Positions 4,959 through 43,026 of a stretch of DNA of 45,644 nucleotides are shown in pieces. Both the position numbers and the translations under genes were made by a program. The stretch is from Christensenellales bacterium (lineage in GTDB: Bacteria; Bacillota; Clostridia; Christensenellales; DTU072). The notes beneath the pieces were generated by a model, which did no database searches, was not told the origin of the DNA, and worked only from the letters and a program-made list of their open reading frames with translations. The stretch lies in assembly GCA_051887955.1 (NCBI GenBank), contig JBJFAO010000156.1, positions 1 through 45,644 on the forward strand, written 5' to 3'. The first letter of the stretch is position 1. Each line of letters starts with the position of its first letter.

Positions 4959-5028
4959 TTTACATATATATGTCCGCGACAAAAATCGGTGACTTTCCCC
5001 CTCGTTCAGAGGACTATCGGGGGCACGC

Positions 5029-5039
5029 GATAATGATTC
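5029..5039. promoter_or_regulatory. Fur-box-like half site in the feoA/ttcA divergent intergenic region
   Basis: GATAATGATTC matches the first 9-10 nt of the classical GATAATGATAATCATTATC Fur box. The second half is poor. It lies 47-71 nt upstream of the feoA start candidates. Confidence 0.25.
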
Positions 5040-5100
5040 GGAACCGACTTCGGGTTAAATTTTATTGCAAAATAATCGTTTTGGGAGTATCATTACGATT

Positions 5101-5931: not shown

Positions 5932-5965
5932 AAAAAGGAAATTTTTTACAAAAACAGAAAAAATC

Positions 5966-5991
5966 AATCCGCGTATTTTTGCGGATTTTTT
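5966..5991 (+). terminator. Intrinsic terminator after ttcA
   Basis: AATCCGC (5966-5972), an 8-nt loop, GCGGATT (5981-5987), then a T-run to 5991. Confidence 0.6.
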
Positions 5992-6108
5992 AATATTTTT
6001 GCGACTTTACGTCGACGGAAGAGAGAAGAAAGAGCCCGCGAGGAAGAGACTTCGTTCCGTTCGTGTTGCGCCCGTAGTATTATATATAATATAAATTCAA
6101 CGCGCCTA

Positions 6109-6137
6109 TTGACACGCTTTGATTTATGGGTTATAAT
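6109..6137 (+). promoter_or_regulatory. Perfect-consensus promoter for the giant gene
   Basis: TTGACA (6109-6114), a 17-nt spacer, TATAAT (6132-6137). An A/T-rich tract (6078-6100) lies upstream. The predicted leader is ~58 nt, with GGAG at 6189-6192, 9 nt before the ATG. Confidence 0.6.
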
Positions 6138-6201
6138 GTGATTGCGTAAAAAAGGGTGAAGTGCGCCCTTTTGAAGAAAACCGAAAACGGAGAAGCGAAT
6201 A

Positions 6202-6312
6202 ATGACACCAAAAAACAAAAAAACGACGCACGGCATTTTCGGAGGCTCACGCCTTCGTTGCTTGCTGATGCTTCTGATGATTATCGCGCTGGTATTCAGC
6301 ATAGCGGCGTGT
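6202..6312 (+). other. Lipoprotein (SPase II) signal peptide with lipobox
   Basis: The N-terminus is MTPKNKKTTHGIFGGSRLR (basic n-region), CLLMLLMIIALVFS (h-region) and the lipobox I-A-A-C, with Cys37 at 6310-6312. A Gly-rich linker, SERTEGGENGGGG, follows. Confidence 0.7.
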
Positions 6313-9300
6313 TCGGAAAGAACCGAAGGCGGCGAAAACGGCGGCGGCGGAATTATTGACGACAATAAGGACGTTCAGCAGGTCGTCAACGTCACGAACA
6401 AAGAAGCTACCGAATACATAAAGACCGCCGTCAGAAACCTCGGCGCAACCTACGCCAACGACGAAAAGTGGCTCAACGTCGATTTCGCAATCGCTATCTC
6501 CTTCAATTCTTACGCAAAGGTCGACGACAAGTACACCTCCGAAACGGTTTCCAGCGCACAATTCGAAATAACGGTAAAAGCGGCTCTCAATCTCGAAGAC
6601 AACGCGCAAAGCGCGTTGGTTATAGAGTTGCGCGACATAAGACGCGACGCGACCGCTTTGGGATTCTACTATTACGATTCCACCACCTATCTGAACGTAC
6701 TCGGCAAAAAGTATTATTCCGAACAGCTTAATATGAACCAGATAGGCGTCGCTCTCGTCAACGTTCTTAAAGAAAAGGAAGTCGACATAGTGCCTATGGT
6801 CGGCAATCTGCTCGGCGGTTATATGGAGGGGACGGGAACGATACAGGGACTTTTGCCTCTCGTCTGGAAGATACTGTTCGCTTCGCAGTCGAACGTCGTT
6901 TACAGCGCGGAAAAAGTCGGCGATATGCCCAAATATCAATACATAAATCAGTATATCAACGCCGATATGATTTTCGAGATGATAGAAAAGGGCAAGATAG
7001 ACCTCGCCGGTATATTCACCCTCGATCTTACGTGGGAGGGCATAGGCAAGCTTCTCAATATGGAGTTGCCCGATATGGATCCGTTGCTTCGGGCGATACT
7101 CGGATTCGGACTTTACGACATCACGCACAAGGATTGGCCGTCGATGACGGTGGAGCTGAAAGCCATTACCGAGCTTACCGATTTGAAGCAGGGCGACGGC
7201 ACGATGACCAAAGGGTATAAGTTTACGGGATTTGCTTTGGACGTGCAGAGCGAAACCAAAGAATACGACCTCAATCTGAAAATCAATCCGTTCAAGCTCA
7301 ATACCAGCGCGAGCGACGAAGTAAAAATGAACCTCGCCGGCTACAATTTCGGCGCGGGCAAGAACAGCACCTACGAAAAGGGAAGCTTTACCAATCTCGA
7401 GCTTAATTTCAATCTCGGAGTACAGAACAAAGAGGACGAAGAGCTGACTATTTCGGGTTTGATAGGCAATTCGTTCAATCTCGGCGCGCTCGGCGAGATA
7501 CCTTTGCGGTTTGCCGGCGATTCCGACTATAATTTCGACGTCAAGCTCGCTCTGAGCCTCGATTTGTTCAACAACGCCAACAACAAGGCTCAGGTTACGC
7601 TGAAATACGGCGGACGGGAAGTCGTGTCGCTGTATCTGGTGCCCGACCTCAGGATGGAGGAGGGCAGCTCCGTGGTGTTCAATACCCTGTACATCGACGC
7701 CAGCAATCTGACCAGCGGCGGCAGGGCGTTTATTCCGCAGCTGCGCATGCCTTCGCTCAACGTGACTCAGCTGCTTGCCGGCACGCCTGAAGTGCCCGGA
7801 TTTTTGGGCGGACTAATGAAATATTTCGACCCGTATTATGCGGGTACTACGAGCGGCACGCGACCGAACAACGCCGACGAGGCGGGGGGCGGACTCGACG
7901 TGCTTACCTTGCTTACTCTTTTGGTGGAAACCGACGAACAGGGCAATCTGAAGCACTTTACCTTCCCCGACGCGACCTCCAAAAAATTCGATATCCATTT
8001 TGACAACGCCGCGATAAACACTCTTGTCGGAATGTTTATGCCCGGAATAAATCTCGGGATACAAAACCTGTCTCTCGGTCTCGATTTCGCAAGGCCGTTC
8101 GATTCCATAAGGCTCGACGTGGACGTGACGGATTCTCTTAAACTCAGCGCGGCGATAGGCGGCGACGCGCCCGACGGAACGTATACGACGGGAATAAGCT
8201 ATTTCAAACGTCCCAAATTCGATATGGAGGCGGTAGGCTGCGACGAGAACGGCGACGTTCCGCTCGACGGTAAAGAGAATGCGGAAAGCCTGCGCGGAGA
8301 ATATAAATCCATGGCGGGCGCGCTGGAATACGGCGCGAGCATAACCGGCAGCGTTAAAATAGGCAGCGGCGCAGATACGGAAATCGACCTTTCCGCTCTC
8401 GTGGGCGCGTTCGTCAAGAACGTAATGCTCGCTCTCGGAATAGAGACGTCGTCCGAGCTTAACATAGGTTATGAAATAAAAGCCGGCATCAATCTTCTCA
8501 GATTTTCGGAGATGGGACTTATAGTCGACCTCTATATTCTCGATTCCGACGGCAATAAGCCGTACGGCTATCCGTTCCTTACCCTTTACTATTCGGGCAA
8601 CGACGATACTCTTTTCATCAATACGAAGGTGAGCGAAGAGTACGATATGATGACTCAGCTAAGGGAGACGTTGCCGTTGACCAACGTAATCGACGGTAAA
8701 ATCCCCAAAATAGCCGTGCCCAATCTCGGCGTGGCGAAATTGTTGGAGGGAATGGGGCTCGATCTTTCGGGATTGGGCGCAATTATCGGAGCAAACGCGG
8801 ATTTGCGTCTGTCCCTGCCCGAAGACAGCGATAAGGTGGAGGTAGAAGAGAACGCGGACAGCCTCCTGTATATGCTGAGCAACACGATTTCTCTCAATGC
8901 CGACGGCGAAGGCGGCGGGCTCGACGTTCTCGGGCTTATCGGCAGCGCAATCGAAAGCGTGAACGTTGAAGACGGCAGATTGGGCGTAGTGCTTAACGCC
9001 GAGCTTATCGGGGCGTTGGTAGCCATGCTTTCGGTGGACATTACCGGAGAGCTCCCGAAAATAAACGGCAGTCTCAGCCTGCACCTCGGCACGCAGATAG
9101 CGCGCGACGCAGAGGGCAACAAGCTCTACGAATACATCACCTACAAGGAAGACGGAACGAAGGATATAAAGATATTCTCGTACTCCTACGGCGACGAAGG
9201 CAAGCTCGTTATTAAGGACGAAAACGGCAACGTTACCGATTGGGAAAGGGAAATCGATATGGAAAAGATCGTGCCCCACTATAAGGACAGCAATTATATC

Positions 9301-39300: not shown

Positions 39301-40989
39301 GGCAGCAACGGAAGACTGAACGTTGCGTTCAACGACGAAGAAATTTCCGGAGCCATGATGATGCCGGTAGACGATCAGGTATACCGTACCGTTATGAGAG
39401 TACAACCGTGGCTGTTCAAGAACACCTCCGAGCCGATAACGGCGTTTGAAGATTCGACGGCGTACGGGCCCGACGACATAATACTGTTGCCGACCAAGTC
39501 CGCTTTGCCGTTGAGTCAGTCTACGGACGGATTCTATATAGAGGTGAGATACAACACCGAAGACGGCAATCCCGTCTATGACAATGCGTACGCTTATATA
39601 ATGCACTATATGATTAACGGCGCGGAAAAGACGGTTGAGATAAAGAACGTCGACGGCGGAGGCACCTATCGCGACAACTACAACAAGTGGTATTTCGGCG
39701 GAGTCAAGTTCGGCGAGCCCGATCAATACGCAACGTTCAGATTGGGCGGAAAAGGCGGACAGGTGTTCAGGTGGAGATTCAGCAGGACGTCGAACAGAAC
39801 CTGGATAAACAGCAACATACCCGATATGATGGCTTTGGAGGTAGGGAAAACGTTCAAGCTCGAATCCAATCTCGTTCAGTATTTTGCAAACGGCACTTCT
39901 ACCGCTCTCGAAAGCTCTGGAGACGCATATATCCCCGTCGTTTACAGCAATCTGCGCAAACCGCTCGACGACGACAGATTCACCACCGCGATAACGGGAG
40001 ACCTGAGCGGCAAGGTCGTAAGCGCGGAACGCTCCACTCCTTCGACGGTTCAGAGCCTTGACTTCGGCACCGAAGAGGACTCCGACGGTAACGACGTTCA
40101 GATAGTCAACGACTATCAGATAGCGTTGCTCGATTGGGCGGTGACGGGAAGACGCGCTTATCCTTCGCCCAACAAGAAGATAGGCGGCACGATTATTCTC
40201 AGCGGTTACGGCGCGGTTATGCCCAGCTACGTCTACTCCTTAAAAACCAACGACGGCATAGGAGATATGATTGGAAACATATTTAAGAACGAGACCAACA
40301 CAGGTTTCAACAGGTTCTACGTTTCCGACGAGGGAAGCACAAAGCATTATCTGTTTATGCCCAACACCGACGAAGTCAACGACGCGGGGATGCCGATGTC
40401 TTATATCAACGCCAACGTGACGCTCGACGACGGATATCAGTACGACGACAGCATGCTGCAGCCCGTGATAGGGGACACGTATTACGTAACGGAAGGCTTG
40501 CACGAAGTGGCTGTATCCTCTATACCGACGGTATACATAAAGAAGGGTACTAAGTTCGCGTTGCACAATCTGCCGTTGTTCCAGGTCAATATGGCGTTCG
40601 CGGTGGAGACCAGCATAGAAATTCCTATAGCCGGCGGTATAAGTCTGAAGAAGGAATATACCAAAGACAATACGAGCACCGCAATTTACGTGCCGTGGTA
40701 CAATGCAAGGGTATATCAGGTTACCGGTAGCGACTTGCATATAAACGGCGATACGATTACTGCCGCAGGCGGAGTCAAGGAGCTTGAAAACGGAATCGCC
40801 GGAATCAACACCAACGCTTCCAACAGGATAAGATACGTGCTTTGCACGAAGGTATCCATGAGAATGTCCACGATGTCGGACGCGGAACAGATCTATAAGA
40901 ACAGACCTTCGGGAGACAATTCGTATCCGCCCGACGAACAGTACAAAGACGTAACCTTTAACGTCTACACGATAATAAGAATCAATTAG
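6202..40989 (+). CDS. Giant predicted lipoprotein, 11,595 aa (function unknown; putative cell-surface fibre or tether)
   Basis: It is a single open frame of 34,788 nt with a promoter, SD, SPII-type signal peptide and terminator. The protein-like, non-random composition persists throughout, and divergent protein motifs recur (see the repeat features). The only long competing ORFs are codon-aligned antisense shadows. Confidence 0.85.
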   Translation: MTPKNKKTTHGIFGGSRLRCLLMLLMIIALVFSIAACSERTEGGENGGGGIIDDNKDVQQVVNVTNKEATEYIKTAVRNLGATYANDEKWLNVDFAIAISFNSYAKVDDKYTSETVSSAQFEITVKAALNLEDNAQSALVIELRDIRRDATALGFYYYDSTTYLNVLGKKYYSEQLNMNQIGVALVNVLKEKEVDIVPMVGNLLGGYMEGTGTIQGLLPLVWKILFASQSNVVYSAEKVGDMPKYQYINQYINADMIFEMIEKGKIDLAGIFTLDLTWEGIGKLLNMELPDMDPLLRAILGFGLYDITHKDWPSMTVELKAITELTDLKQGDGTMTKGYKFTGFALDVQSETKEYDLNLKINPFKLNTSASDEVKMNLAGYNFGAGKNSTYEKGSFTNLELNFNLGVQNKEDEELTISGLIGNSFNLGALGEIPLRFAGDSDYNFDVKLALSLDLFNNANNKAQVTLKYGGREVVSLYLVPDLRMEEGSSVVFNTLYIDASNLTSGGRAFIPQLRMPSLNVTQLLAGTPEVPGFLGGLMKYFDPYYAGTTSGTRPNNADEAGGGLDVLTLLTLLVETDEQGNLKHFTFPDATSKKFDIHFDNAAINTLVGMFMPGINLGIQNLSLGLDFARPFDSIRLDVDVTDSLKLSAAIGGDAPDGTYTTGISYFKRPKFDMEAVGCDENGDVPLDGKENAESLRGEYKSMAGALEYGASITGSVKIGSGADTEIDLSALVGAFVKNVMLALGIETSSELNIGYEIKAGINLLRFSEMGLIVDLYILDSDGNKPYGYPFLTLYYSGNDDTLFINTKVSEEYDMMTQLRETLPLTNVIDGKIPKIAVPNLGVAKLLEGMGLDLSGLGAIIGANADLRLSLPEDSDKVEVEENADSLLYMLSNTISLNADGEGGGLDVLGLIGSAIESVNVEDGRLGVVLNAELIGALVAMLSVDITGELPKINGSLSLHLGTQIARDAEGNKLYEYITYKEDGTKDIKIFSYSYGDEGKLVIKDENGNVTDWEREIDMEKIVPHYKDSNYIEAHVGIIDDKMGNKEAFYLGLKLIETVNLKKGSDLDFIGGHSSATYVTLDQWVKELVVSVNVELEVNLEAGSPELIPEKLNETIGKMLTELMGSAEGSEEFLDVLIKSLALKIQNGYFYETGLHLGLAVKGNINVNNIFDSNLGVVIFDKSAPDTGGYTASDGRAYTIIAGVFVDENKGYVDLSYLGINPVAVSDLEGTYVGMIATLWNVNYNKTFDNAIAAEDGYLSKRNFMDYVMKETVLNYFFDNFYVNNGYASRYPTSAYKYLLNDDGYIYLYYVNAFGNNFEYTDKSNDIFLKNTSRSYVIESNGNIVVRNTATGDFYTTLVPFLREDGSPLRISVSEEEEIMRQAQWEKDEQMGAEPTHYVDLGDLLAKKAYDSYNDYVSDYVGRWDTVYNKEGIDGNLKSFMDDEYEKTIAEIKSFLRAVIVAKELVTIEREQGIAVIEYMKTSEDMTSDGAGTYVEIYGTKTNAQIRATGEYLKLLEEYVEKAVEETVEKQYASRGVTAEELKSVTCYRIRHNESFKEELEKIRNETQPENTDVIVKNVGEMEEFVSKLVPALSADYRTPELSNAAIDNPTRIALQILYNSGKVSVELSAVTVSAVLTMLGFERVNDLITIDSINIGLDFSDGIEFGLSVGLESTYSIGLGLSKLRASVDPDKRDNYKVTINTDKYPPESEMQGVPDAVHVTASGSLYIRNDTGKSGLRPSNDYNITDVINTVFSNSEFKKSELDAVYAEIEKENAGNSTMTVAAKKTAAWKRVSSSELSQKQKEEMQTRYASAVKDIKINKNDVAEWYEWTEGDDNHYALAWDYLCKNSILVDLNDVGAIIMAQFLGEMDDSLEFVVDAWLDFESIYRSILKIELIRHNYSETENTINSESVLTVYYDGSNLAPTETQFFGDVYVSTNIFNIGDVVLRDVTAVIKGVTEIFDSTFTSAMGDAIDKFLGLDSPSPADIVRGSAQNAAASNADEPALATYLNIMFNDGNLGIAVTKATLISVIRIFGVDLTEALSALDFGMDLTVGFKNNLNLTANIYLDSEGNVTEKNDHATEIGLTIGGLNASFTNDIITDADREKDYKEVEKFTTVGFQWGGKSAFALSNVNRNFNFDYAVRMFTEYWLDGRDWDVGLQLDVADTQEFKQATYFSVNANVNLTTLKELKNIELFLNFTSDGKQKLYDYLEERRNFLTDFLAAVGENNAENKAKAWDLLLDKLSTALPDDDNLDRYGKVYTPETEILDDNKCYGIMNEIQREMINKYANETERKVACWNKLYGLSGDYYLGDAISLYVTLDAEGIADVYINLGFLGVERIKLSNVSQIVIALAKGFGLDLGAILGRGSSNSASNSAPSDEQAAYAAVASQIAREILLQINTKEASDLLMLKVTGGAIYALVAALGVDIEEYFDKYTPNLYVSAFGDDLAEINLELENLFDLSISVAYPKFSLNSGLELSINEDAYTIIDKEWTTDLKLFFEGALKLGANGEAEASSPEDITSINFGDLLRGLLGNDTFAVDVILKALQTVSADLTFRLEAKANLVQLYMLISLLSGDEGTLTDEQKEAKKALYDDDGKLNILKVLSASGVELYLEIINRREKDGYITEDLVMGVYLVKESPDGINEFLSLYLDLAAFHVGRVKVTDFESTANGLMNKLGDLFGGDKETAGNAADGEGNEAATVSSGSALFDTARYLLYMKSTAEENIGKIDPNSFFMDYSEVFGKGGSLLPDNADGGRETTLADFIHAVVGNTYGLTISAAANVLIKLLNEAFNDERSRYSRSFLNYIESVYKGDKEENIAEKQTVLNRMDDILAANEQNKQNAWEALLDSNSLGQYYTERAMEIYGSLQTGTDSDVRAEAWDRLYAEINGDIDGIREALDDSDALDKFSEETAEEYSYYYAAGMALESYVYDMHVKLNALKTAYEQAEETVNGMSGIAPDLKDREIESYAFEYFTGRFAWSNADKEKYQAIYNEKETENGGSKLMAGSEAWKKIRTDINNTYATLLAAFRYVNSFAYTTYGFKTTGDATLNGSIDDYVRENNIFIISEGRYEKYALNVSHTWKVVAWEYLVDNKSISPETAENYYNTAFKQYVISARGLLTAIEYRYAAWTYINADAQRVIGCVYPEMAFSLRKIVDENGDSVWTRMDVTEEYLLILEDYYDKSYSDIPQLIIDAASKKGEITLGILFENSILNVGAEIANLYLEIKFVEAGVKIAESDLSRTRLEFVYDDFDNITGQEERTEIVNVENLEKSVEKEGGFAEIDENFGYVYAKLDIEFGLNLDDDARYDFTELINSLIASIGLDLTFNGQTLQIAPVLSILNSIGNYFRISLEAKINLFRLMNKDLSDTDISLTVYSLDGSGNIKETVLQLVFGTAAEEDGTLYNFVYIDAHRFNIQRLYVKNALDQIKKLLGNSDYPVYHDIRNGGSISKAVMAAMIADVLSAGEGDETVFDSFAKYADANGGSNPSVDIELARYGMSVQIAANAVYALLSFLGMGNVKSMISKVGEPSLAIDIFSVATYNDEDIVKPDGSYDDGDRNLIAVQLNFDSINENGVGTGRGIGLMLAIRNMELSFNQKQNIEFNEEEILERDENGDPIDFAEIDGMLPKIAIKTSIVLEIDAGVTTGTNLYQEPVNTIMKNYLGGLVMDIALYIANKQKITVAVDIEASLDLGNGEDNEYLKHLISGSSIRIALRIFRVGDKVASDSTKEWAVITYFGGNLYIDLSNLNSDKLYLADVGNLVFGDGSDKQTQALFSAYEALCAAIGKVNIGIDAEINTSGIYLIVKKAAIASLLKVFGFGGFDMFPDAAIQVYVKGMKVEEGVNTFDIGLQLALGENLVTGSTVLNPVLGLGISVKGLYVGFNGLDIQVSDSAEYIQLDRLDTIYFSTEFLVKVTDEKGIYKLGGLLQVLKNNGYFDLGATLGIDTAIDPIIEFLESLDSALYAKVDVTLNINSILEDLQARLSIYNKAPADRAEDERPILSLAYIRGDVYIDAEGLSGSENFYLGKVKISGIMDLIKALTGGNATEEAKNTYEMIKTYEKLFAKENASFADVTEKASGTINIIGDVVEGLTVELVNGAIFGLVKQLLGVDMADLITNVQTMVESVMDPYLGINIDPSITLLITIGLPSTAYNVTESVTAVPESMANAINKWYGDEKDSLIYPDEVWNVLFEGSELYKLYNISSDKKAEKVREWIAGNKPEISSVYADMQVRFPKMSDSQIYVLTYDYMIGEIYGNSVLTAAYGYNFSADKEETSGDKLNVKLESFYSDYLKAYAWNSYYNLASEALKGRMDDILSTQSDKKSAYDVFVSEISDEADALRNVYEKSVYREKIAALRLEAVSLGVNDSYCYTALIKGIMRANYAMEDGWISYISDQIKYTSGEDKITVYLAKYDELYTVQRAYAWDAYYAQADAYDKALMNGAFSYAEGRYKNATEQELKAYAYDKYKKDLQESSTLYQEALAADDSAILKSILVNEMRRYRYYDGDTLAGLSADEISDLIVILDALNAAVAKYSVANTVILNAYQVAELVYDLVFDPATALTDVEKDFDGVAVDVMRRIRLFAVDELRNSGVERITSQLIATDGETDYEKIELLDSLMKRYADKFVVLRGTGKELDAITAAADGVSYRTQAWNNLISLEYKSLLPENAVILSAETGAVNSGYAYSGINNGKEINPSRYFADRYGLTVENDLMKVYLIYSELKTRAADKSLFVTAEEYVYDSDKIGNVTAICRDSAYGKDGYLVQFYRMARAFSRYLFLFDAAGKTMTAEEISVVAEIASDSYGVISYETYFDCFADYKGESSEHYGRIITAINIVRDMYVTLREECAKQDKTTRRKIDVAIKSIMPKRGITVEKVSSAIAYGDIADVKDMPLYPTYLAISQLLINYAGSNAALNEAVEYADYYMNNHADTGLNERIALIYGRYIKICDSVHKKEIENVINAFNSGDYSALTAECWAGFGFEGDIYDSGRNVIEIKEKAAAINTLFAGYNNEEYSKRFAWEAWYRLSSTASRIEEMDAMLRAKVFESLYSDIKDMLTEIIIDSADSAIKEGMSVIGVNAKKYEKLNIIAYNEYFSEFKAATTALYGTINGYYGEIDDVVAAAESDLTARFEDNASDLQKAELMRKIYSEVVADSSGYDAKIAMEWKATYETAINGIIDEDATAYGNLMYEKLTVADLNAYVADMRAVFENISSRVVDEYGARTEKAMLGAARDKTAQLRDVFDGHLAAMRSAEYDYYYYTQLDEYLKKDPANTKESFDNEIGEGTVVIDYEEYPVASPDPSEITAAANMQELKSVYERFAACDKTAKLQTYEYAHDTHSINNAVGMDDTTYNVNKKQANAYDYRADNAELYAYADYLAVTNKGNVYDYNYRRITALRGIEQNVAISSSVKDNIATEGGKYRETALGYENLIHDNNNKEIIDAVYAFSEDDRYSDDAYLTSCRDEFVTKYKEYALKAFDLLFSSGSITALFGGDMPRATYTAFIDCYDDMRSKMNSLDHGSDTYSLYDRTRTEVLLSKTVKNKALLMEKMYLSYEDGTLSTGIISDFDDLFANYMKAMETAVYADAFAYFTQHIYSERNGGIYSAFRTQIASMYDGYISSATALLKKVYLAVTGEELNAGAFTEAVTAVNAHPVPGEYAKFVDFATNISNYIKQFTDNFGVFDNEAKLKVLASVISDGNALYGDADCVNGMKNIRTAFVTFVRENYFTFGATESILGVGAKYYDDLYSLTNELSALVAAANDVAKINELKGYISALGYSVSGSEDYFRTLTIVFNAANGNIAGINKVYRAMFGNYAANVSSAVYLIITESTFKNKLAADYEEIVASIKANDPNLKTFVEGQGISDSSSAQDKALALVALSDYIESYVENGNTLSEATEEKYADARIALLSLTSPEEHLTLSVLESYYGSYATAAIAKALKLKSTLEAGTDDALEYLTFTDMRDIFDEYLDFCKQESASDLVNVLEDSRILVKSFDQVYKNAMSALESLADFSISIGLEGAQTSVLFDIKRYQEDESGASVSMIKDVLTDEEKAEYTEYSELTLRVNLNASLAMNLDKGILDINPLLGLVNLPIKISELDIEFLAEHTLYAEISGYLGINFEALLSGDKDRINSSIVGEVALTYYLIDHDTDGENTRFEQVILHIWLFGPSIYGQVELFDSHVSVEIPFTLGEMLVGMFNPETSAEEAAALSSINSAIMSAVHGVTKEEAAEMQTPFEQLMTVANASESSLADVLEVLLRINTQETAIILTVDILAELVKIIFKEETLSSGLEDLVNLALTEGDIAIEYGNDFGIRLGLHKNSEEGSDKIGYDAELALLRDTLISLDRKQYDKLYNSIDTLKKDGFFDDFFKLGTDIDSDATMSEILTSVIGARTTVSLSIYLESDVLKTVLDWSKLFSVQEVDTYFQLRIMQNARGRLRLDIALDIDLERETFDFYIRGYNTDNENFFNIYYVSGMLNNDSGAPGVLAPKFYVDSGERGHDKLMLTPEMGYNMFNLNLVNIFFYLINSESRYDIHAQNVSGYVADNASFDALVDEMDWGDVLDGLTFGKGTIGIQLATTIINAFLQALFGFEFAELGNITLELDNVNNTLFLNIPIDAPVYDEGGNVVNSSKLNFGFGLSDVDIKLGAREDFFGESVSSKFGSGYEPLDNYVWVTEVNSSLHVNDEFNTVLDLTGLTSSIINGLGVNIKSGDILDKEILFALRTYVDFADLSNLRFELEVSHGNGAGAKVQRILGIKYVGQANDGTVFVDLSGLGLPKISISNINIGSLVKEILAKLEKSLSNDEEQITPSSADGTVGNDITDAERRSQMYRDIADMEFGQNMLMYVYSSEEASLAITGALLLTLIGNLNDTLGGVLPDAILNIPTFSYLKIGRDDADKVNGIQIVLDENKQFSIRFNFDKSYSHLSVRSKVSDITDMTVVSDADKDEYTSIDSLKNLHIGLNLELTLQTINPDTGKKSDVIEGFEDMLEKMLGLQSDTIMFDLQDTIMTFSIMLDVGVDLTDFAKSVIKLEIYYNDEVMIGVYYIDGVVYVDLGTLGLFRASINGIDLAAMITGMLSGTDFEKMITVDGIDVAGLVGGLLDADKLSEGGSGSTVKSGTFVKKETKGSSIAELDAAVKKLSDGTANGGYTKDQIRLVADAMTAGKIKSLDNLTADQYKSLYDYITGGKSISEYIASDDFTGFVLFGERGRVISAITAIIDAAQTALKGMSAEQLAITIEECKLSGKTYNKMGISQLELALTIVRKYELASIDKMSSSLKAKAIAETVDEKGSAINSALYTGDATAKEAVEKFIKSFVAAFAGCNVHILNAIIGGMESAGLEYLQMKGSHYDVAGNSDAEVTARKKAFIEGMVKKYAVDYVNVTYGITDSEIDLVIARSLAQFGIYEIADSTVSGTDGNNASGTPLINLILTEEEIKINPNAASLGLLVGMIMPGKGLTIPDFKRMELVLNTYDGLSNINFNFVLDGYGNKFHLAIPTGGLKFVFNEGVGELAGGKDKSFTEILELPDVSSYGGLTGVSMNASGLNMNTTALVNSLLDGIFIDDLTIYLEHRTDYWNRKDLFSKYPKVDATGPYTYADWDDGYLGNDAQALSTVAKILNIVNKIYNLINYKNIIDLITGTSGLVDSATASKNRPKLIRNQYARGKVVAYKTVTNVINADISTPSYKQGNISAHIDHHQILLSIGMSLTIKIYITLDLSTFLNGKNEGMESKGLNISNLAGMVLFPDSMFASTNEKSGSGRFYGRVTDTEGNPIEGATVTVYNGTGDYQVRTTDAEGYYYFLNLPVTERIYREYDLYRLNKWFDDLNKDENPNNNIVFGEKYINFDGKDYEFVDGVYYNVGDRSTISIHKSGCSSYYEREIFVTPKETNSAIRRDAVLVDVSSSGEVPKSVTFTGKTYYRDGEALKPFGGASVVYNGGTGLTVSSVLAEEGVGTYSMTVDVYESVLDYYENVATSLLAHNFTANISGYELVTFNVNEGGNTTNYSAIALNAFLNEAIKRGSSGLTVNLDLIFDRTDVVSTMIVGKIRVPKERGSAEMVVPEPGTYEIWVSVGGHTSGVVDFYDLAPDDFSVAVDEDGNFSFTGKELALEDVGSSSYIIKFRSAVYKNIDLKADSNGFASDTYGRMYALDTYNSQVSSYYVELNPVYREEHWSEKSVGISEEENVSDIGKLLSRVRIRLGADKLDGEVHDDGDNGMQDYDHSYQDEMSNLVYEGSNVVDRYNTYTYIEAWLNSSRINEMLAGVESIILGMMGVTGIAPGQTISAQDISLGATTTKDDFNIDMYTEAQLQHTGADKLLELFEKRYKGRYNENDFRIFDKVYVDKGAYYQATHSALAKMSAGLVHFVLTMVFDSTGLATMEALGVHLTDLIAFAILDPTAFEALNAIKMLGAIPGIGWLFTGIGTVAGFLGSLLSTVGQQLGALLGELATIFSSLLPIQLGYNLFDTVDLRGSPLSKAGYNAESFEDKSLGTVDIGGGQFVNMYKDARTYDLSTYAKITLNSGSNGGYLDRISLFINSASYDRDSEISGNLDDGNRMDEYTAMQQGDWNYNYWENNGRVGDYYSETPVYKTEITYTKIDDLSSHEGEYYYKDLDAVERGDSDPYVLSTLATEDGEYETYTTTSGTEERVPYSREETETTEVVSREVDYHTDPTATHGIKSVDIKSVTVIRSGVVDEDSEKLMEEFIKTTNVNSYAIIDEYYIDPNTDQKVVYNREFIYDDEKNAKEDVYQELEIKNNGIDIRQVKDAFNGTFKRTEYDQYEKVWSDEVVVPPTKIIFWDPFDLTDFTMEGGTWASSDGYTGVRRNTDPLITVEKVLPNRYMASFADGNSTGTQGMNIYWNVSALSLNAEGTANSKQKEYLQGFVGNGVYAKIEVEVKPFTVDLVSAKAQIIKQVSEKMIVDPYTFDAEEFVAGLPSFFYYDYVSGEGSETRKKTYLFNELKWSLDYKVIDGVRRYTSLDYATDGFEPYVNLTFRAYEAFQSEDDEDVWVDAEGNTPYTTVQIPLKVINYEVSRVESAVDNSVGGIVPVGMPEGYGGMITFNPLNNRDPYSSLYYLESFDTVVLKDGRIVNDWAIVPGSFRTIKKDGAILDEYDSSYSGEQTYTVSYKVTDGTGYVQTVYVYVKILSSNILPGQSYYYDGENKVYIESGKEIVPYAATTDYDAALDKDYVDGNILGRLYLSDAIEVVYEGGYEERVILGESKKRRQIYVTYNETSGKLEVNGATIIDGDDFSYRIPYMNYADAGVKTIEAVIGRHGYAKWELDDMVSDVLLSHLDVNYTENKAKAAAYDKLYSELSRYDKLRLNKILAETGNKARAWNAWYAAYTDDKLDTYSENDALHMDMLLTEATLSYCNISYTTALSLAYEKLLVDNTEANTDKNKISVAELREMFGEIKSSYVNETTAELQARTFKKWYDERTRHQLSIIREVLPRRAEAVGSVSVNPTQGFTVADLPKYVSVGYAGVIDSVTDGYDMISTKVTWIVDEEEILSKMGYDGAIVSAEVILKDELFGDQVLRGVGIQINQLKVSGIASYFGSSDLPAVSAYDEESVDRFLSSYYSADAIETKSYAFAIIVEGMSELIRISTESGMENAVWELATGTEYYQGTTNRKVLWQYVEDSNGDGNYENDGLSYDPNAGAHKIRVWVQSKNYYEIGAGSGSKWQYAVEIDLTKIAYANNGSSYVADLVYFNKLKDETVVSIEKARIDGDESKVSVKFNETTGKYTVAFNPTEVKFDENTLVEFDVDLGRVETGANGKRVSHWMKAVVDLTGNEDFYNKRKVESSIIFGDKYNNVQRVPVTLINKAEYAFDDVTEIVYKKNGAVVDMNSQIGTALQNLSDLLPDSAVVAGTMDNVYEEVTLPVAWSEVEEYGLDGRTESGKAPTARATIGDRTFGYIPSKTVSIILGAETEVAVEGIPDSINVDPYGVNDFEWLVSTYTVATLTTKVVDVNGTIRTVTKDVDVDIVMEDIDLADYREDNFVRKTYSVRMRLGHTVTNGKNGQFDVRYEIERNVVLRDRSISDMYIAGFNGVSGGEIVWSEIDYLTADVYEKASADDFVYTVRVNPTQATISQVKAELGEKYYGVKTIYEYDESLPSEKAYEIDEPKYGCFIAYGSGSDAVYAPEVVFEGFDDVIYTANGGVYTDKVYAVVGSGELQQRIPVTVNVNRALVKGLKLLPYYYSESEEYSAVGVNGGIYVPVQTDSDGNVERLVIEPFLGFDNMPAEVIAVIDVGGGEIAYRRVKAEWDGSLVTANMKLSGGNFDKGVTGNLAYATVYAYDDDERTGEQVIEFSVTVPDRTVLGYEVSYDGVHYKALNDLVYGEDDNADAYTNELLLNPYNMRNALLDAYSAANGADPSENDVYNASSKVYDASFNKTDAAGNKVRNAEFTFFTHVKVVCEGGYVREYELTESNYVAFGKINATNLYSGGRSLSIDLRVGEAYVDGGNGTYSREAAVLNVAPNVSGGGFDDYVRVRILDMSYASGLEKDIYYIDPYGVLGATGKGGVVFEPTAEYPQDTVRNVRITGKDSEKYVLEYMGDKIALATYEFEEVNYDGSAINYRWFDIESIDNVTGKFTLKERKRNGGRIKYGSGVGKIAVTLGSERDNASAGVQVYNIPVIYVDRTIVDLGFNSENAPFYKTVVWDNGNVGGGFVFDPFVAYNPSADGFADNEQGFLKNGQYGTTVTFANTDIDRIFGGRQGSRFSYDLAMDQKDVRVGVTFEDKKVKWRYTGGEFEAKALIGSGDSLQEIEVMVKLLSRRVDVNRTGTVRGFGSSVLKPGVDLFTKLKVYDYIGVSNVEAKLIGDFFAIGNTEFEVYFEDFDEPITYRMNAVAESVGNYVLTESELNYKENDVIYNNGVRMSFAMDTSDSISYKGGKLNFTMTIPGYGMGRSGQQKATISVGLEEQYVVYVNPAEEDGTEITYDTFYADAINADAIEYDGSSHRWFVTNPYYFIQEGGVRVPDTVVAYVADKATYDEYVELTRVTKATQGGETVYVPAHTEAEINAWLGSHASSFGKYAVDVVWSGGSNGRLNVAFNDEEISGAMMMPVDDQVYRTVMRVQPWLFKNTSEPITAFEDSTAYGPDDIILLPTKSALPLSQSTDGFYIEVRYNTEDGNPVYDNAYAYIMHYMINGAEKTVEIKNVDGGGTYRDNYNKWYFGGVKFGEPDQYATFRLGGKGGQVFRWRFSRTSNRTWINSNIPDMMALEVGKTFKLESNLVQYFANGTSTALESSGDAYIPVVYSNLRKPLDDDRFTTAITGDLSGKVVSAERSTPSTVQSLDFGTEEDSDGNDVQIVNDYQIALLDWAVTGRRAYPSPNKKIGGTIILSGYGAVMPSYVYSLKTNDGIGDMIGNIFKNETNTGFNRFYVSDEGSTKHYLFMPNTDEVNDAGMPMSYINANVTLDDGYQYDDSMLQPVIGDTYYVTEGLHEVAVSSIPTVYIKKGTKFALHNLPLFQVNMAFAVETSIEIPIAGGISLKKEYTKDNTSTAIYVPWYNARVYQVTGSDLHINGDTITAAGGVKELENGIAGINTNASNRIRYVLCTKVSMRMSTMSDAEQIYKNRPSGDNSYPPDEQYKDVTFNVYTIIRIN
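6661..28569 (+). repeat. 13-14 highly divergent copies of a two-motif (A then B) protein module inside the giant CDS
   Basis: Motif A is ...[VI]Y[VIL]D[LA]xxLG... It starts at nt 6661, 7681, 8581, 9811, 11941, 13141, 14101, 16381, 17401, 18205, 24680, 25600, 26461 and 27316. Motif B is strand-turn-strand plus a helix ending in LG[VF][DE]. It starts at nt 7981, 8959, 11044, 12229, 13390, 14488, 16672, 17581, 18445, 24961, 25882, 26731 and 28474. The order is always A then B. Similarity exists only at the protein level. Confidence 0.55.
18700..24200 (+). other. Helical-looking block of ~1,800 aa, rich in Ala, Tyr, Asp and Glu, that interrupts the module array
   Basis: No A or B motifs occur between B9 (18445) and A11 (24680). 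The sequence is dominated by helix-favouring residues with few Pro or Gly. It contains many A-W/A-Y-x-x-Y motifs, for example KAYAWNSYYNLASEA and RAYAWDAYYAQADAYD. The boundaries are approximate. Confidence 0.4.
29473..29630 (+). other. Carboxypeptidase-regulatory-like (CarboxypepD_reg/PEGA-type) beta-sandwich domain
   Basis: GRFYGRVTDTEGNPIEGATVTVYNGTGDYQVRTTDAEGYYYFLNLPVTE matches the family pattern G.V.D..G.P..GA.V.........TD..G.Y.F..LP. Two weaker look-alikes follow at ~29923-30085 and ~30316-30520. Confidence 0.55.
31261..31580 (+). other. Hydrophobic glycine-zipper segment (candidate membrane hairpin)
   Basis: The sequence is MSAGLVHFVLTMVFDSTGLATMEALGVHLTDLIAFAILDPTAFEALNAIKMLGAIPGIGWLFTGIGTVAGFLGSLLSTVGQQLGALLGELATIFSSLLPIQLGY. 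The 38-aa run MLGAIPG...GALLG (31411-31524) is uncharged and contains four GxxxG spacings. Confidence 0.55.
32560..40986 (+). repeat. C-terminal array of degenerate Ig-like modules with a Big_4-like LP..V......V.W signature
   Basis: Examples: VLPNRYMASFADGNSTGTQGMNIYWNV (32683), GLPSFFYYDYVSGEGSETRKKTYLFNELKWSL (32983) and DLPKYVSVGYAGVIDSVTDGYDMISTKVTWIV (34591). Further examples are LLPDSAVVAGTMDNVYEEVTLPVAWSEV (35743), NMPAEVIAVIDVGGGEIAYRRVKAEWDG (36883) and VPDTVVAYVADK...YAVDVVWSGG (39100). The family assignment is by eye only. Confidence 0.4.
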
Positions 40990-41001: not shown

Positions 41002-41043
41002 ACCAAACGGAGCGTTGCGAGAGCGACGCTCCGTTTGGTTTTG
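41002..41043. terminator. Bidirectional intrinsic terminator between the giant gene (+) and the glycosylase gene (-)
   Basis: ACCAAACGGAGCGT (41002-41015), a 10-nt loop, ACGCTCCGTTTGGT (41026-41039), then TTTTG. An A-run upstream (40995-41000) supplies the U-tract for the opposite strand. Confidence 0.7.
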
Positions 41044-41061
41044 TAAATCAATTAGAATATT

Positions 41062-41526
41062 TTATAAAAACAGCAGAGCTTTTTGCCAGGCGTCGAAAGA
41101 AAAACGCGGATTCGCGGGGCTGGTGGAGGGGAGGCAAATGGAAAGCGGAAGGTATTGCGGGAAAAGGCTTAAATAACGATACGCCGTTTTTCCGTTGGCA
41201 ATTATTCGCTTTATTTTATAGCGGGACAGGAAAGAATCGATATCCGCCACGATTGCGTTTTTTATTGCAATGTCCATAGAACCTTCTATATCGCACTCCG
41301 TCACCATATCCCACAGGGCGATTTTGTTGGCTTTGAGAAGAGCTTTCTTCGAGTCGTTGTCGCAGGGAAGGGGCGCGTCGTAGACCGCGCTCAACACCTT
41401 CCAGAATCGGTTTTGCGGATTACCGTAATAGAAATCGGATTTCCTGCTCATTACGCTCGGGAAACTACCCAAAATAAGTATTTCGCTATCCTCGTTTACG
41501 TACGGGGCAAATCCTGTGCAACGCAT
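41062..41526 (-). CDS. DNA-deoxyinosine (hypoxanthine) glycosylase, UDG superfamily
   Basis: 154 aa. GFAPYVNEDSEILILGSFPSVMSRKSDFYYGNPQNRFW...LPSTSPAN is the characteristic family-6 UDG/HDG pattern. Confidence 0.75.
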   Translation of the reverse strand: MRCTGFAPYVNEDSEILILGSFPSVMSRKSDFYYGNPQNRFWKVLSAVYDAPLPCDNDSKKALLKANKIALWDMVTECDIEGSMDIAIKNAIVADIDSFLSRYKIKRIIANGKTAYRYLSLFPQYLPLSICLPSTSPANPRFSFDAWQKALLFL

Positions 41527-42949: not shown

Positions 42950-43026
42950 CGAGGAGTAGCGCAGTTTGGTAGCGCGCTTGGTTCGGGACCAAGAGGCCGT
43001 GGGTTCGAATCCCGTCTCCTCGACCA
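42950..43026 (+). tRNA. tRNA-Pro (anticodon CGG), CCA encoded
   Basis: 77 nt. The acceptor stem is CGAGGAG/CTCCTCG and the D stem is GCGC/GCGC with a GG loop. The anticodon stem is CTTGG/CCAAG with loop TTCGGGA (C34 G35 G36, G37). The T arm is GTGGG-TTCGAAT-CCCGT, followed by discriminator A and CCA. Confidence 0.9.

What the first reader, a model, noticed from the sequence alone, without database searches (positions are those of the whole stretch)
6202..40989. One 34.8-kb gene encoding an 11,595-aa predicted lipoprotein with almost no recognisable domains
This is one uninterrupted ORF of 11,595 codons plus a stop. It covers 76% of the window and would give a protein of roughly 1.3 MDa (assuming ~110 Da per residue). 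It looks like a complete expression unit: a consensus promoter, an SD, a textbook SPII signal (lipobox IAA|C, Cys37) and a 14-bp-stem terminator directly after the stop. It differs from the known giant bacterial surface proteins (Ebh, SiiE, LapA/RTX adhesins, Bap). By eye I find no near-identical tandem DNA repeats, no GGxGxD nonapeptides and no LPxTG. I also see no SLH, LysM or choline-binding wall anchors, and no NRPS/PKS motifs. The protein is strongly acidic and rich in Tyr, Asn and Ala. It has only about two dozen isolated Cys residues. Only one ~50-aa stretch (29473-29630) resembles a named fold family. A Sec/Lgt/Lsp substrate of this size, tethered by an N-terminal lipid, would be unusual and is a good candidate for an undescribed envelope structure.
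Basis: partly seen in the sequence, partly recalled or inferred. Interest (0 to 1): 0.9.

Follow-up and report, generated by a model that had tools for sequence, protein, structure and literature searches.

The report
Giant conserved lipoprotein of gut Clostridia
This is a real, intact 34.8-kb gene under purifying selection that encodes a 1.28-MDa lipid-anchored surface protein; it belongs to a rare, uncharacterised family in Christensenella-like gut and rumen bacteria, matches no described protein family, and its job is still only inferred.

Summary
Window 6202-40989 (+) is one 11,595-codon ORF, giving a 1.283-MDa protein with pI 4.5. It has a 12/12 consensus promoter, an SD and a 17-bp-stem terminator.

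The gene is real. Nine other assemblies carry colinear homologues that stay open as far as the DNA I hold (2,520-5,506 aa for the five longest). dN/dS is about 0.10-0.15 along the compared length. The protein diverges about as slowly as its housekeeping neighbours.

All nine family members with a complete N-terminus carry a lipobox Cys, including full-length relatives of 7,125, 7,809 and 7,826 aa at 21-31% identity.

The family is rare. An exhaustive search of 1.84 billion representatives with the last 1,195 aa found 30 proteins. Those that carry a name are Clostridia, Christensenellales or Bacillota MAG proteins labelled hypothetical or "carboxypeptidase-like regulatory domain-containing".

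Pfam, NCBIfam, PDB, PHROGs and PADLOC give only one partial CarboxypepD_reg hit.

The protein is not featureless, though:
- Profile comparison finds at least 11 very divergent copies of a ~120-180-aa module in aa 117-7066.
- There is a helical region of variable length at aa ~4190-6000.
- AlphaFold (pLDDT 81) models the last 1,195 aa as a chain of beta-sandwich domains.

Best reading: a membrane-tethered, elongated envelope or surface fibre. Function is inferred, not shown.

The parts
6109..6137 (+). Sigma-70-type promoter, TTGACA-17 nt-TATAAT
   Evidence: 12 of 12 consensus matches; 0.7 promoter-like sites expected in shuffles of the region
6189..6192 (+). Shine-Dalgarno GGAG, 9 nt upstream of the ATG
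   Evidence: Read directly from the sequence
6202..40989 (+). Giant ORF: 11,595 codons plus stop
   Evidence: Colinear homologues stay open in L001-L003 and L006-L011. dN/dS is about 0.10-0.15.
6202..6312 (+). Lipoprotein (SPII-type) signal peptide, aa 1-37, lipobox IAA|C with Cys37
   Evidence: Only strongly hydrophobic segment in the protein. A lipobox Cys is conserved in all 9 N-terminally complete family members.
6550..27399 (+). Region holding 11 detected copies of 'module A' (~120 match positions, 120-180 aa each). Copies lie at aa 117-180 (partial), 390-516, 700-808, 1078-1229, 1850-1952, 2487-2669, 3283-3427, 3621-3760, 3896-4035, 6665-6784 and 6948-7066.
   Evidence: hhalign between family tiles gives 90-99.7% probability. 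An iterated HMM converges on 11 copies in the window and 102 in the family. There is no PDB relative.
18769..24201 (+). Helix-rich region of variable length, aa ~4190-6000. It is absent from the 7.1-7.8k-aa relatives and only ~450 aa long in L012.
   Evidence: In P0018, P0020 and P0021 the residues matching aa ~4157-4188 and ~6000-6041 lie next to each other. No hit in the 5.8-billion-protein database. Codon usage matches the rest of the gene, RSCU r = 0.93-0.95. The first ~150 aa are shared by L001-L003. L012 o1 matches aa 4421-4500.
29482..29613 (+). Partial CarboxypepD_reg-like beta-sandwich domain, aa 7761-7804
   Evidence: Pfam PF13620, E = 1.7e-9, 38.4 bits against a cut-off of 32.3. The same domain is the reason NCBI names relatives as it does.
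37402..40986 (+). C-terminal 1,195 aa: a chain of beta-sandwich domains ending in a sheet of four long (14-18 residue) strands. This region contains the motifs that stay invariant across the family (NYNKWYF, GGKGGQ, RAYP).
   Evidence: AlphaFold2 with a 30-sequence alignment gives mean pLDDT 81.3 and pTM 0.54. Foldseek finds only generic multi-Ig arrays. Invariant motifs are listed.
41002..41039 (+). Intrinsic terminator: 17-bp stem, 4-nt loop, then UUUUG. It has an A-run on its 5' side, so it may also terminate the convergent UDG gene.
   Evidence: dG -32.7 kcal/mol, z = -7.4, and 0 of 200 shuffles fold as well. Sequence.

Best explanation
The gene encodes a conserved, lipid-anchored, megadalton cell-envelope fibre of Christensenella-like Clostridia.

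Proposed course of events:
1. One 34.8-kb transcript starts at a consensus promoter.
2. The nascent chain is exported unfolded through Sec.
3. Lgt attaches diacylglycerol to Cys37 and signal peptidase II cuts after Ala36. The mature ~11,560-aa acidic protein stays tethered to the outer face of the cytoplasmic membrane.
4. A Gly/Asp-rich linker follows. Then comes about 7,000 aa built from very divergent copies of a ~120-180-aa alpha/beta module, interrupted by helical stretches, one of which varies in length between lineages.
5. The last third is beta-rich and ends in a chain of Ig-like beta-sandwich domains.

Such a molecule is most likely elongated. My rough estimate is tens to a few hundred nm. 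It would pass through the wall, and its best-conserved C-terminal end would sit furthest from the membrane.

I think it works as a structural or adhesive surface element, either organising the envelope or mediating cell-cell or cell-substrate attachment. I do not think it is an enzyme, a toxin or a transporter.

What is shown: the gene is intact, it is under purifying selection, the lipobox is conserved, the family is colinear, and the C-terminal fold is predicted with good confidence.

What is inferred: the Sec/Lgt/Lsp route, the extended shape, the surface location and the function.
For: The gene is intact and selected.
- Homologues stay open and colinear for as far as the DNA is held. The five longest are >4,344 aa (L001-L003), 5,333 aa (L006), 3,731 aa (L007), 2,520 aa (L008) and 5,506 aa (L011).
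- dN/dS is 0.10-0.15 and even along the compared length.
- The protein is 66-69% identical to its orthologues. The flanking FTHFS is 77% identical and the aminotransferase 70%.

Lipoprotein signal.
- The lipobox Cys is kept in the window, L001-L003, P0001, P0003, P0018, P0020 and P0021, even though the signal peptides themselves have diverged.
- There is no other TM-like segment and no wall-anchor motif.

Family colinearity.
- The 7.1-7.8k-aa relatives align in order from the N-terminus to the stop codon.

Architecture.
- 11 module-A copies.
- The C-terminal model has pLDDT 81. Foldseek matches only multi-domain beta-sandwich surface or adhesion proteins: alpha-2-macroglobulin, SbsB and Sap S-layer proteins, MpAFP, GhpA and cadherins.

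No sign of an enzyme, toxin, phage or defence protein.

No conserved partner genes. Only close orthologues share flanking genes.

Expression signals are strong.
Against: - There is no expression, localisation or lipidation evidence of any kind.
- Only about 10% of the chain (the last 1,195 aa) has a confident model. The N-terminal model failed (pLDDT 35), so the fold of module A and the overall shape are unknown.
- Foldseek similarities are generic (TM <= 0.2).
- Slow, colinear, non-repetitive evolution is unlike typical adhesins. That weakens the 'adhesin' half of the statement and favours a structural role.
- One relative (L012, 5x coverage) carries three in-frame TAA codons, so the gene can apparently be lost, or that assembly is poor.
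- The 3' junction of the aa 4190-6000 region is not confirmed by any independent assembly held here.
Confidence: 0.5

Rival explanations
1. It forms a two-dimensional coat or wall-embedded scaffold. In this reading it is an S-layer-like or exoskeletal lattice held to the membrane by the lipid anchor, not an individual projecting fibre or adhesin.
For: It evolves at a housekeeping-like rate, is single-copy and sits among housekeeping genes. The promoter is consensus. Foldseek hits include the S-layer proteins SbsB and Sap. The protein is strongly acidic, as many S-layer proteins are (the composition is; the comparison is from my own knowledge).
Against: There are no SLH or CWB2 domains. A 1.28-MDa monomer is about ten times the size of known S-layer subunits (own knowledge). 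The S-layer Foldseek hits have TM <= 0.16 and probability <= 0.38. Nothing here shows self-assembly.
Confidence: 0.17
2. It is an ordinary giant adhesin of the Ebh/SiiE/Bap kind. Its repeats have simply diverged beyond recognition, and it binds host mucus, plant fibre or partner microbes.
For: The C-terminal Ig-like array resembles adhesin stalks, with MpAFP, cadherins and contactins among the Foldseek hits. Cryptic repeats exist. The source habitat is gut or rumen, judging by the MAG titles.
Against: Typical adhesins keep recognisable tandem repeats, vary in repeat number and evolve fast (own knowledge). Here BLASTP finds one weak internal pair, and module copies are only 16-25% identical. 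Order and content are colinear even in relatives at 21-31% identity. dN/dS is low everywhere. No LPXTG, RTX, T1SS or sortase context was found.
Confidence: 0.15
3. It is a bridge-like conduit, of the repeating-beta-groove (AsmA/TamB/VPS13) or Lpt type. Module A would stack into a long hydrophobic groove that moves lipids or glycolipids from the membrane outward.
For: Module A is ~120-180 aa of amphipathic strands plus a helix and is repeated at least 11 times from the membrane-anchored N-terminus. The failed N-terminal model still placed unusually long strands with interspersed helices (low confidence).
Against: No Pfam AsmA, TamB or DUF748 hit at E<=0.01. hhalign of the module profile against E. 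coli TamB gives 0.05% probability. No PDB hit. The protein is strongly acidic. The relatives are Clostridia, which as far as I know have no outer membrane to bridge to. The N-terminal model is unusable (pLDDT 35).
Confidence: 0.05
4. It is an exported precursor that is cut into smaller products (a polyprotein), or it carries an unrecognised enzymatic or toxic C-terminal domain.
For: The C-terminal ~700 aa hold the invariant motifs (NYNKWYF, GGKGGQ, RAYP, MMMPxDDQ), which could mark an active or binding site.
Against: No catalytic or toxin family was detected in Pfam, NCBIfam, PADLOC or PHROGs. The C-terminus is conserved, not polymorphic. No immunity-like gene follows it. The model of this region is all beta-sandwich.
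Confidence: 0.08
5. It is an artefact: a misassembled or chimeric ORF, or a decaying pseudogene.
For: The stretch aa 4340-6255 is not covered by any independent assembly held here, and aa 4350-5850 has no database homologue. L012 has in-frame stops. L005 looks chimeric at its 5' end.
Against: There are 11,595 codons without a stop. Independent assemblies are colinear over aa 1-4340 and 6255-11595. Purifying selection is seen wherever a comparison was possible. Codon usage in the uncovered stretch matches the rest of the gene (r = 0.93-0.95), and that stretch shares the AW helical motif with conserved parts. L012 has a shorter version of the same region at the same position.
Confidence: 0.03

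Closest known systems
Ebh / giant Gram-positive surface proteins (S. aureus Ebh ~10,000 aa; Mobiluncus 7,651-aa Ig-repeat adhesin, PMC10619420)
   Same: It is a Sec-exported, megadalton, acidic envelope protein of a Gram-positive-lineage bacterium. It is probably elongated and multi-domain, and it is by far the largest gene in its neighbourhood.
   Different: Those proteins consist of recognisable tandem repeats (FIVAR/GA or Ig-like). They are held by a C-terminal TM segment or by LPXTG and sortase (own knowledge; PMC10619420 for Mobiluncus). Here the anchor is an N-terminal lipobox. There is no LPXTG and no C-terminal TM segment. Repeats are detectable only by profile-profile methods.
RTX/T1SS giant adhesins (SiiE, LapA, MpAFP)
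   Same: The distal part is a chain of beta-sandwich domains. An MpAFP domain is among the Foldseek hits.
   Different: No GGxGxD nonapeptides. No T1SS genes nearby. The relatives are Clostridia. It has an N-terminal Sec/SPII signal rather than a C-terminal secretion signal.
Apilactobacillus kunkeei Giant1-5 (PMC12863079)
   Same: These are very large (3,000-8,000 aa) extracellular proteins of a Firmicute with atypical Asn/Ala-rich composition. They mix helical and beta-sheet regions, have few library domains, and were assigned structure only through AlphaFold.
   Different: Giant1-5 have SPI signals, clear imperfect internal repeats (13-51 copies), an N-terminal beta-solenoid and C-terminal DUF5776/SH3b-like wall-binding domains, and they lie in a five-gene cluster (PMC12863079). 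Here there is a lipobox, no DUF5776, no detectable solenoid, a single gene and a different taxon.
Bacterial alpha-2-macroglobulins (ECAM/YfhM, Salmonella A2M)
   Same: They are lipoproteins built from a string of beta-sandwich domains. Salmonella A2M is the second Foldseek hit (E = 1e-5). CarboxypepD_reg is a related sandwich type.
   Different: A2M proteins are ~1,650 aa and have a CxEQ thioester and A2M Pfam domains (own knowledge). Here there is no CxEQ and no A2M Pfam hit. TM is 0.06 and probability 0.21. The size is about seven times greater.
Giant proteins of Omnitrophota and other metagenomic giants (bioRxiv 10.1101/2023.11.21.568195)
   Same: Both were found in metagenome assemblies, exceed 10,000 aa and are largely unannotated. 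That paper also notes Clostridia giants of 10,000-30,000 aa from mammalian guts.
   Different: The Omnitrophota giants have many TM regions and divergent SecA DEAD domains. The Clostridia giants described there consist of repeats such as RCC1, Listeria-Bacteroides repeat, YG repeat, dockerin and LRR (same paper). None of these is present here.

Membership tests
Bacterial lipoproteins (Sec/Lgt/LspA substrates) | N-terminal signal with a basic n-region, a hydrophobic h-region and a lipobox [LVI][ASTVI][GAS]C | tested here: met
   MTPKNKKTTHGIFGGSRLRCLLMLLMIIALVFSIAA|C37. KD is 2.74 over aa 20-38.
Bacterial lipoproteins (Sec/Lgt/LspA substrates) | Lipobox Cys conserved in homologues | tested here: met
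   9 of 9 N-terminally complete members carry it: IAAC (window, L001-L003, P0001, P0018), LAAC (P0003), LVGC (P0020) and LLSC (P0021).
Bacterial lipoproteins (Sec/Lgt/LspA substrates) | Diacylglyceryl modification and cleavage by signal peptidase II | not testable with these tools
   This needs lipid labelling or globomycin treatment in a carrier strain. SignalP 6 and LipoP were not available.
RTX / T1SS adhesins | GGxGxD nonapeptide repeats, a C-terminal T1SS signal and adjacent T1SS genes | tested here: not met
   0 GGxGxD motifs. No HemolysinCabind hit. The flanking genes are housekeeping genes.
Sortase-anchored (LPXTG) surface proteins | C-terminal LPXTG motif followed by a hydrophobic segment and a basic tail | tested here: not met
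   0 LPxTG motifs. One NPxTG at aa 6972 lies far from the C-terminus. There is no C-terminal hydrophobic window, and the protein ends ...YTIIRIN.
S-layer / wall-bound proteins | SLH, CWB2, LysM, SH3b or choline-binding modules | tested here: not met
   No such Pfam or NCBIfam hit at E<=0.01 on tiles covering the whole protein.
Bacterial alpha-2-macroglobulin | A2M/MG Pfam domains and a CxEQ thioester | tested here: not met
   No A2M family hit. No CxEQ. Foldseek match has TM 0.06 and probability 0.21.
CarboxypepD_reg (PF13620) domain-containing proteins | Pfam match above the gathering score | tested here: met
   aa 7761-7804, 38.4 bits against a cut-off of 32.3. Only profile positions 3-47 of 82 are covered. 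This describes one ~50-aa stretch out of 11,595 aa, so it is a domain label and not a family assignment.
AsmA/TamB-like repeating-beta-groove proteins | Sequence relationship to AsmA, TamB or DUF748 families | tested here: not met
   No Pfam hit. hhalign of the module-A profile against E. coli TamB gives 0.05% probability.
AsmA/TamB-like repeating-beta-groove proteins | A continuous beta-taco groove with a hydrophobic lining | tested here: inconclusive
NRPS/PKS megasynthases | Condensation, adenylation, KS, AT or PCP domains | tested here: not met
   No Pfam or NCBIfam hits. An export signal is present.
A. kunkeei Giant1-5 | SPI signal, long imperfect repeat arrays and C-terminal DUF5776 | tested here: not met
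   A lipobox replaces the SPI signal. There is no DUF5776 hit. BLASTP finds one weak internal pair. The family features are taken from PMC12863079.
Omnitrophota-type giant proteins | Numerous TM regions and a divergent SecA DEAD helicase domain | tested here: not met
   A single N-terminal hydrophobic segment and no SecA hit. The family features are taken from bioRxiv 10.1101/2023.11.21.568195.

The most novel reading that the evidence does not exclude
This is the founding example of a new class of bacterial envelope component: a non-repetitive, colinearly conserved, megadalton lipoprotein. As far as I know it is the largest predicted lipoprotein. It would be built from a previously unseen ~120-180-aa alpha/beta module plus a distal Ig-like array, and it would form a defined superstructure (an exoskeletal tether or scaffold) that is a core, near-housekeeping feature of Christensenella-like Clostridia and not an accessory adhesin.
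Probability: 0.3. Interest if true: 0.85.

Novelty: new variant of a known kind. Interest (0 to 1): 0.62.

Why it matters
Christensenellaceae and their relatives are among the gut taxa most consistently linked to host leanness and to co-occurrence and physical aggregation with methanogens (bioRxiv 10.1101/872333 / PMC7002349). Their cell surface is nonetheless essentially unstudied.

A cell that spends 34.8 kb of sequence and the cost of an 11,595-residue chain on one lipid-anchored protein, and keeps it under purifying selection across relatives only 21-31% identical, is very likely using it for something central to its envelope or its interactions.

The protein also tests assumptions about the Sec/Lgt/Lsp route, because it would be a substrate far larger than any studied lipoprotein. 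In addition it supplies a new repeated module with no solved or catalogued relative.

It shows as well that giant genes in MAG catalogues are being lost or fragmented. The full-length orthologues were absent from the 5.8-billion-protein collection, and relatives appear there as 1-3k-aa 'partial hypothetical proteins'.

Tried and rejected
Searches and models that found nothing
- Whole-protein and 5,000-aa queries to the homology search failed, either over the size limit or timed out. I used 1,500-aa pieces instead.
- BLASTP self-comparison, TRF and two first attempts at iterating small seed HMMs found almost no repeats. Only family-profile hhalign and a better-seeded HMM revealed module A.
- PDB sequence and profile searches gave nothing better than E = 0.14. 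This covered the whole protein, the alignments A3 and A5, and the module profile A8.
- NCBIfam, PADLOC and PHROGs gave nothing above their cut-offs. PADLOC and PHROGs covered aa 1-10,000 only.
- AlphaFold on aa 38-1200 with a 4-sequence alignment gave pLDDT 35 and is unusable.
- The first metagenome scan with aa 7300-8300 found no relative.
- The search with aa 4350-5850 found no homologue.
- An exact look-up of the upstream PP-loop protein found nothing. The aminotransferase was found only on a 1.5-kb Logan contig, so the source sample stays unidentified.
Shorter fragments showed only sub-threshold CarboxypepD_reg and Big_4 hits.

Hypotheses I rejected
- TamB/AsmA relationship.
- Alpha-2-macroglobulin membership.
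- Phage or defence origin.
- Polymorphic toxin, because the C-terminus is conserved.
- Real antisense genes. All long antisense ORFs are codon-aligned and follow from the rarity of TTA, CTA and TCA codons.

Literature
- Literature searches found no paper on this family.
Full report
**1.

The window holds one ORF at 6202-40989 on the + strand. It has 11,595 codons, an ATG start, no internal stop and no ambiguous bases. The product is 1,282,916 Da with pI 4.47. It has 15.1% Asp+Glu, 6.2% Tyr, 6.1% Asn and 27 Cys.

Upstream there is a perfect TTGACA-17-TATAAT promoter at 6109-6137. A GGAG sits 9 nt before the ATG.

Downstream there is a hairpin at 41002-41039. dG is -32.7 kcal/mol, z = -7.4, and it is followed by UUUUG.

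The N-terminus reads MTPKNKKTTHGIFGGSRLRCLLMLLMIIALVFSIAA|C. That is a basic n-region, a hydrophobic core and an IAAC lipobox. It is the only strongly hydrophobic segment in the whole chain.

- TRF finds one trivial 42-bp array.
- There is no LPxTG and no GGxGxD.
- Pfam on tiles covering the whole protein gives only CarboxypepD_reg at aa 7761-7804, which is nt 29482-29613.

**2. It is a real gene under selection, not an assembly product**

A scan of one genome per GTDB species found three loci. Two are from MAGs titled Christensenella sp. and one from an uncultured Clostridiales MAG (RUG11213). They are 66-68% identical over the first 1,000 aa. In each, the frame stays open for more than 4,344 aa, to the end of the DNA I could fetch.

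A metagenome scan seeded with a C-terminal alignment found six more loci at 29-73% identity. Their frames are open for 5,333, 3,731, 2,520, 497, 754 and 5,506 aa, from the edge of the fetched DNA to a stop at the same C-terminal motif.

All of these are colinear with the window protein.

Nei-Gojobori estimates give these values:

| Comparison | dN | dS |
|---|---|---|
| L001 vs L003 | 0.057 | 0.384 |
| L002 vs L003 | 0.048 | 0.485 |
| Window vs orthologues | ~0.23-0.25 | >1.4 (near saturation) |

The values are even in every 700-codon bin.

The giant protein is 66-69% identical to its orthologues. The flanking formate-tetrahydrofolate ligase is 77% identical and the aminotransferase 70%. It therefore evolves about as slowly as housekeeping enzymes.

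The one stretch not covered by an independent assembly is aa 4340-6255. Its codon usage is the same as the rest of the gene (RSCU r = 0.93-0.95), and it shares a helical 'AW' motif with conserved parts.

**3. The family**

The word-indexed search of 5.8 billion proteins found only three N-terminal fragments and one C-terminal fragment. It found nothing for aa 4350-5850.

An exhaustive phmmer run of the last 1,195 aa against 1.84 billion representatives found 30 proteins at E<=1e-3, of which 21 were at E<=1e-30. In all but a few of them the match reaches the protein's C-terminal end.

Three hits are complete proteins of 7,125, 7,809 and 7,826 aa. Each starts with its own signal peptide and lipobox: IIAAC, LVGC and LLSC. 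Together with the window, L001-L003, P0001 and P0003, this makes nine of nine N-terminally complete members with a lipobox Cys.

The sources label family members 'hypothetical protein' or 'carboxypeptidase-like regulatory domain-containing protein'. They come from Clostridia, Christensenellales or Bacillota MAGs. I found no paper about them.

The 7-8k-aa relatives are only 21-31% identical to the window protein. They still align in order with aa 31-1244, 1582-2669, 3193-4188, 6000-7118, 7420-9210, 9566-9956 and 10128-11567. The residues matching aa ~4190 and ~6000 are adjacent in them. The window lineage therefore carries a helix-rich region of ~1,800 aa at that point. L012 has a version of ~450 aa at the same place, and L001-L003 share its first ~150 aa.

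Neighbouring genes are conserved only among close orthologues (FTHFS and FeoB upstream, aminotransferase downstream). Distant members sit beside unrelated genes. No dedicated secretion, sortase or partner gene travels with it.

**4. Architecture**

Sequence libraries see nothing:
- PDB phmmer over the whole chain gave 0 hits at E<=1.
- PDB profile searches with ortholog alignments of aa 1-4340 and 8900-11595 gave none.
- NCBIfam, PADLOC and PHROGs gave none above their cut-offs.

BLASTP against itself gives a single weak pair.

Comparing family profiles of 300-aa tiles with hhalign gave 25 off-diagonal pairs at >=90% probability. Nearly all of them link tiles within aa 1-4200 and 6000-7200.

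An iterated HMM converged on 'module A', with ~120 match positions. There are 11 copies in the window protein, at aa 117-180, 390-516, 700-808, 1078-1229, 1850-1952, 2487-2669, 3283-3427, 3621-3760, 3896-4035, 6665-6784 and 6948-7066. There are 102 instances across the family. The copies are 16-25% identical to one another.

The shared pattern is a set of amphipathic strands, then a helix of the form l..ll..ll, then the signature l.vYY.dG.lYvDLS.LGl. The module has no PDB relative and no relationship to E. coli TamB (hhalign probability 0.05%).

Helical stretches carry a short motif, (K/R)AxAW[DEN]x[LW][LY]. The dipeptide AW occurs 20 times, against 6.9 expected.

A crude propensity scan suggests mixed alpha/beta content up to ~aa 7300 and mainly beta content after that. 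This is a rough indication only.

AlphaFold2 on aa 38-1200 with four sequences failed (pLDDT 35). AlphaFold2 on the last 1,195 aa with a 30-sequence alignment gave mean pLDDT 81.3 and pTM 0.54. The model is a succession of short-stranded beta-sandwich domains with a few helices, ending in a sheet of four strands of 14-18 residues.

Foldseek against PDB and BFVD returned only generic multi-Ig arrays, all at TM <= 0.23 with mostly low probabilities. These included bacterial alpha-2-macroglobulin, contactins, protocadherins, the S-layer proteins SbsB and Sap, an MpAFP domain, the base of the GhpA grappling hook, and phage Ig-like proteins. This gives a fold class, not a homologue.

**5. How it most likely works**

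Shown:
- The gene is intact, selected and single-copy, and has strong expression signals.
- The lipoprotein signal is conserved.
- There is no other membrane segment and no wall anchor.
- The distal part is a beta-sandwich array.
- The family is colinear and non-shuffled.

Inferred from established knowledge of the Sec, Lgt and LspA pathway:
- The chain is exported unfolded.
- Cys37 is lipidated and the signal is removed.
- The mature ~11,560-aa protein stays tethered to the outer leaflet of the cytoplasmic membrane.

Its composition, the lack of any compact enzymatic domain and the multi-domain model make an elongated molecule the most likely shape. At ~4 nm per sandwich domain, the modelled 1,195 aa alone could span roughly 30 nm. 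That figure is my own estimate. The best-conserved C-terminal end would lie furthest from the membrane.

I therefore read it as a membrane-tethered envelope or surface fibre with a structural or adhesive role (confidence ~0.5). Slow and even evolution, the absence of repeat expansion and the housekeeping context favour a structural, core-envelope role over a variable host adhesin.

Rivals, with my confidence in each:
- S-layer-like lattice (0.17)
- Ordinary diverged adhesin (0.15)
- Processed precursor or hidden enzyme (0.08)
- Groove-type conduit (0.05)
- Artefact (0.03)

**6. Comparison with known systems**

It works most like the giant Gram-positive surface proteins such as Ebh, the Mobiluncus adhesin and the A. 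kunkeei Giants. It is not a member of any of them. It lacks their repeats, their anchors (LPXTG, C-terminal TM segment, SH3b/DUF5776) and their signal types.

It shares the lipoprotein-plus-sandwich-array logic of bacterial alpha-2-macroglobulins, but it has no thioester motif and no A2M domains.

It lacks the TM regions and SecA domain of the Omnitrophota giants and the repeat families of the Clostridia giants described in the same preprint.

**7. Verdict**

It is a new variant of a known kind, namely the giant bacterial surface protein.

What sets it apart is an N-terminal lipid anchor on a chain of unprecedented length, near-absence of recognisable repeats, strict colinear conservation down to 21-31% identity, and a new repeated module with no catalogued relative.

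Function, location and even expression remain untested, so I score interest at 0.62. The more radical reading, a new class of core envelope superstructure, cannot be excluded. I give it a probability of about 0.3.

Noticed in passing
window 6247-39726, minus strand (for example 11146-13350 at 734 aa and 29248-31281 at 677 aa): Fifteen antisense ORFs of 280-734 aa lie inside the giant gene. All are codon-aligned with the sense frame. The sense gene uses only 44 TTA, CTA or TCA codons in 11,595, about one per 264 codons. The antisense ORFs are therefore a by-product of codon bias and not genes.
   Followed up: yes
L012 22-17337 (ERZ18242344 NODE_876, coverage ~5x): The homologue here was called as three ORFs of 1,050, 498 and 4,162 aa. 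All three are in the same frame and colinear with the giant. They are separated by three in-frame TAA codons and no frameshift. This could be a pseudogene, low-coverage error or read-through; I could not tell which.
   Followed up: partly
L005 1-800 (P0004, scaffold WILK20-1_12746): The first 46 aa of P0004 and the divergent upstream gene are Ala/Gly-rich and unrelated to the family. Homology to the giant starts at aa 47, which matches giant aa 9618. This looks like a chimeric scaffold join or a truncated copy.
   Followed up: partly
L012 24127-27337 (+): A second very large ORF lies 6.8 kb downstream of the giant homologue. It was called at 2,031 aa and runs off the end of the locus. It has no BLASTP or module-A similarity to the giant.
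   Followed up: partly
L008 8651-12526 (+) and L007 11289-12152 (+): Directly downstream of two distant homologues lie other envelope genes. One is an ORF of at least 1,292 aa with YDG domains that runs off the contig. The other is an SH3_3 + NlpC/P60 peptidoglycan hydrolase. Each was seen in one locus only, so this is not conserved synteny.
   Followed up: no
window 42950-43026 (+): tRNA-Pro (anticodon CGG), found by both Rfam and ARAGORN. It lies between the aminotransferase gene and the DUF255 gene.
   Followed up: yes
window 41002-41039: The terminator hairpin has an A-run on its 5' side and a T-run on its 3' side. It lies between the giant gene and the convergent uracil-DNA-glycosylase-family gene (41062-41526, minus strand), so it may act in both directions.
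   Followed up: no
window 43591-45552 (+): A 653-aa protein with an N-terminal DUF255 thioredoxin-like domain (E = 2e-75) and a C-terminal region with hits to six-hairpin glycosidase families (GH76, GH127 and GH88). It appears ordinary and unrelated to the giant gene.
   Followed up: no
window giant aa 1791-3132, 4297-5023 and 9330-9333: A short helical motif, (K/R)AxAW[DEN]x[LW][LY], recurs. The dipeptide AW occurs 20 times against 6.9 expected. It links the variable helical region to the conserved helical stretches. Its role is unknown.
   Followed up: partly
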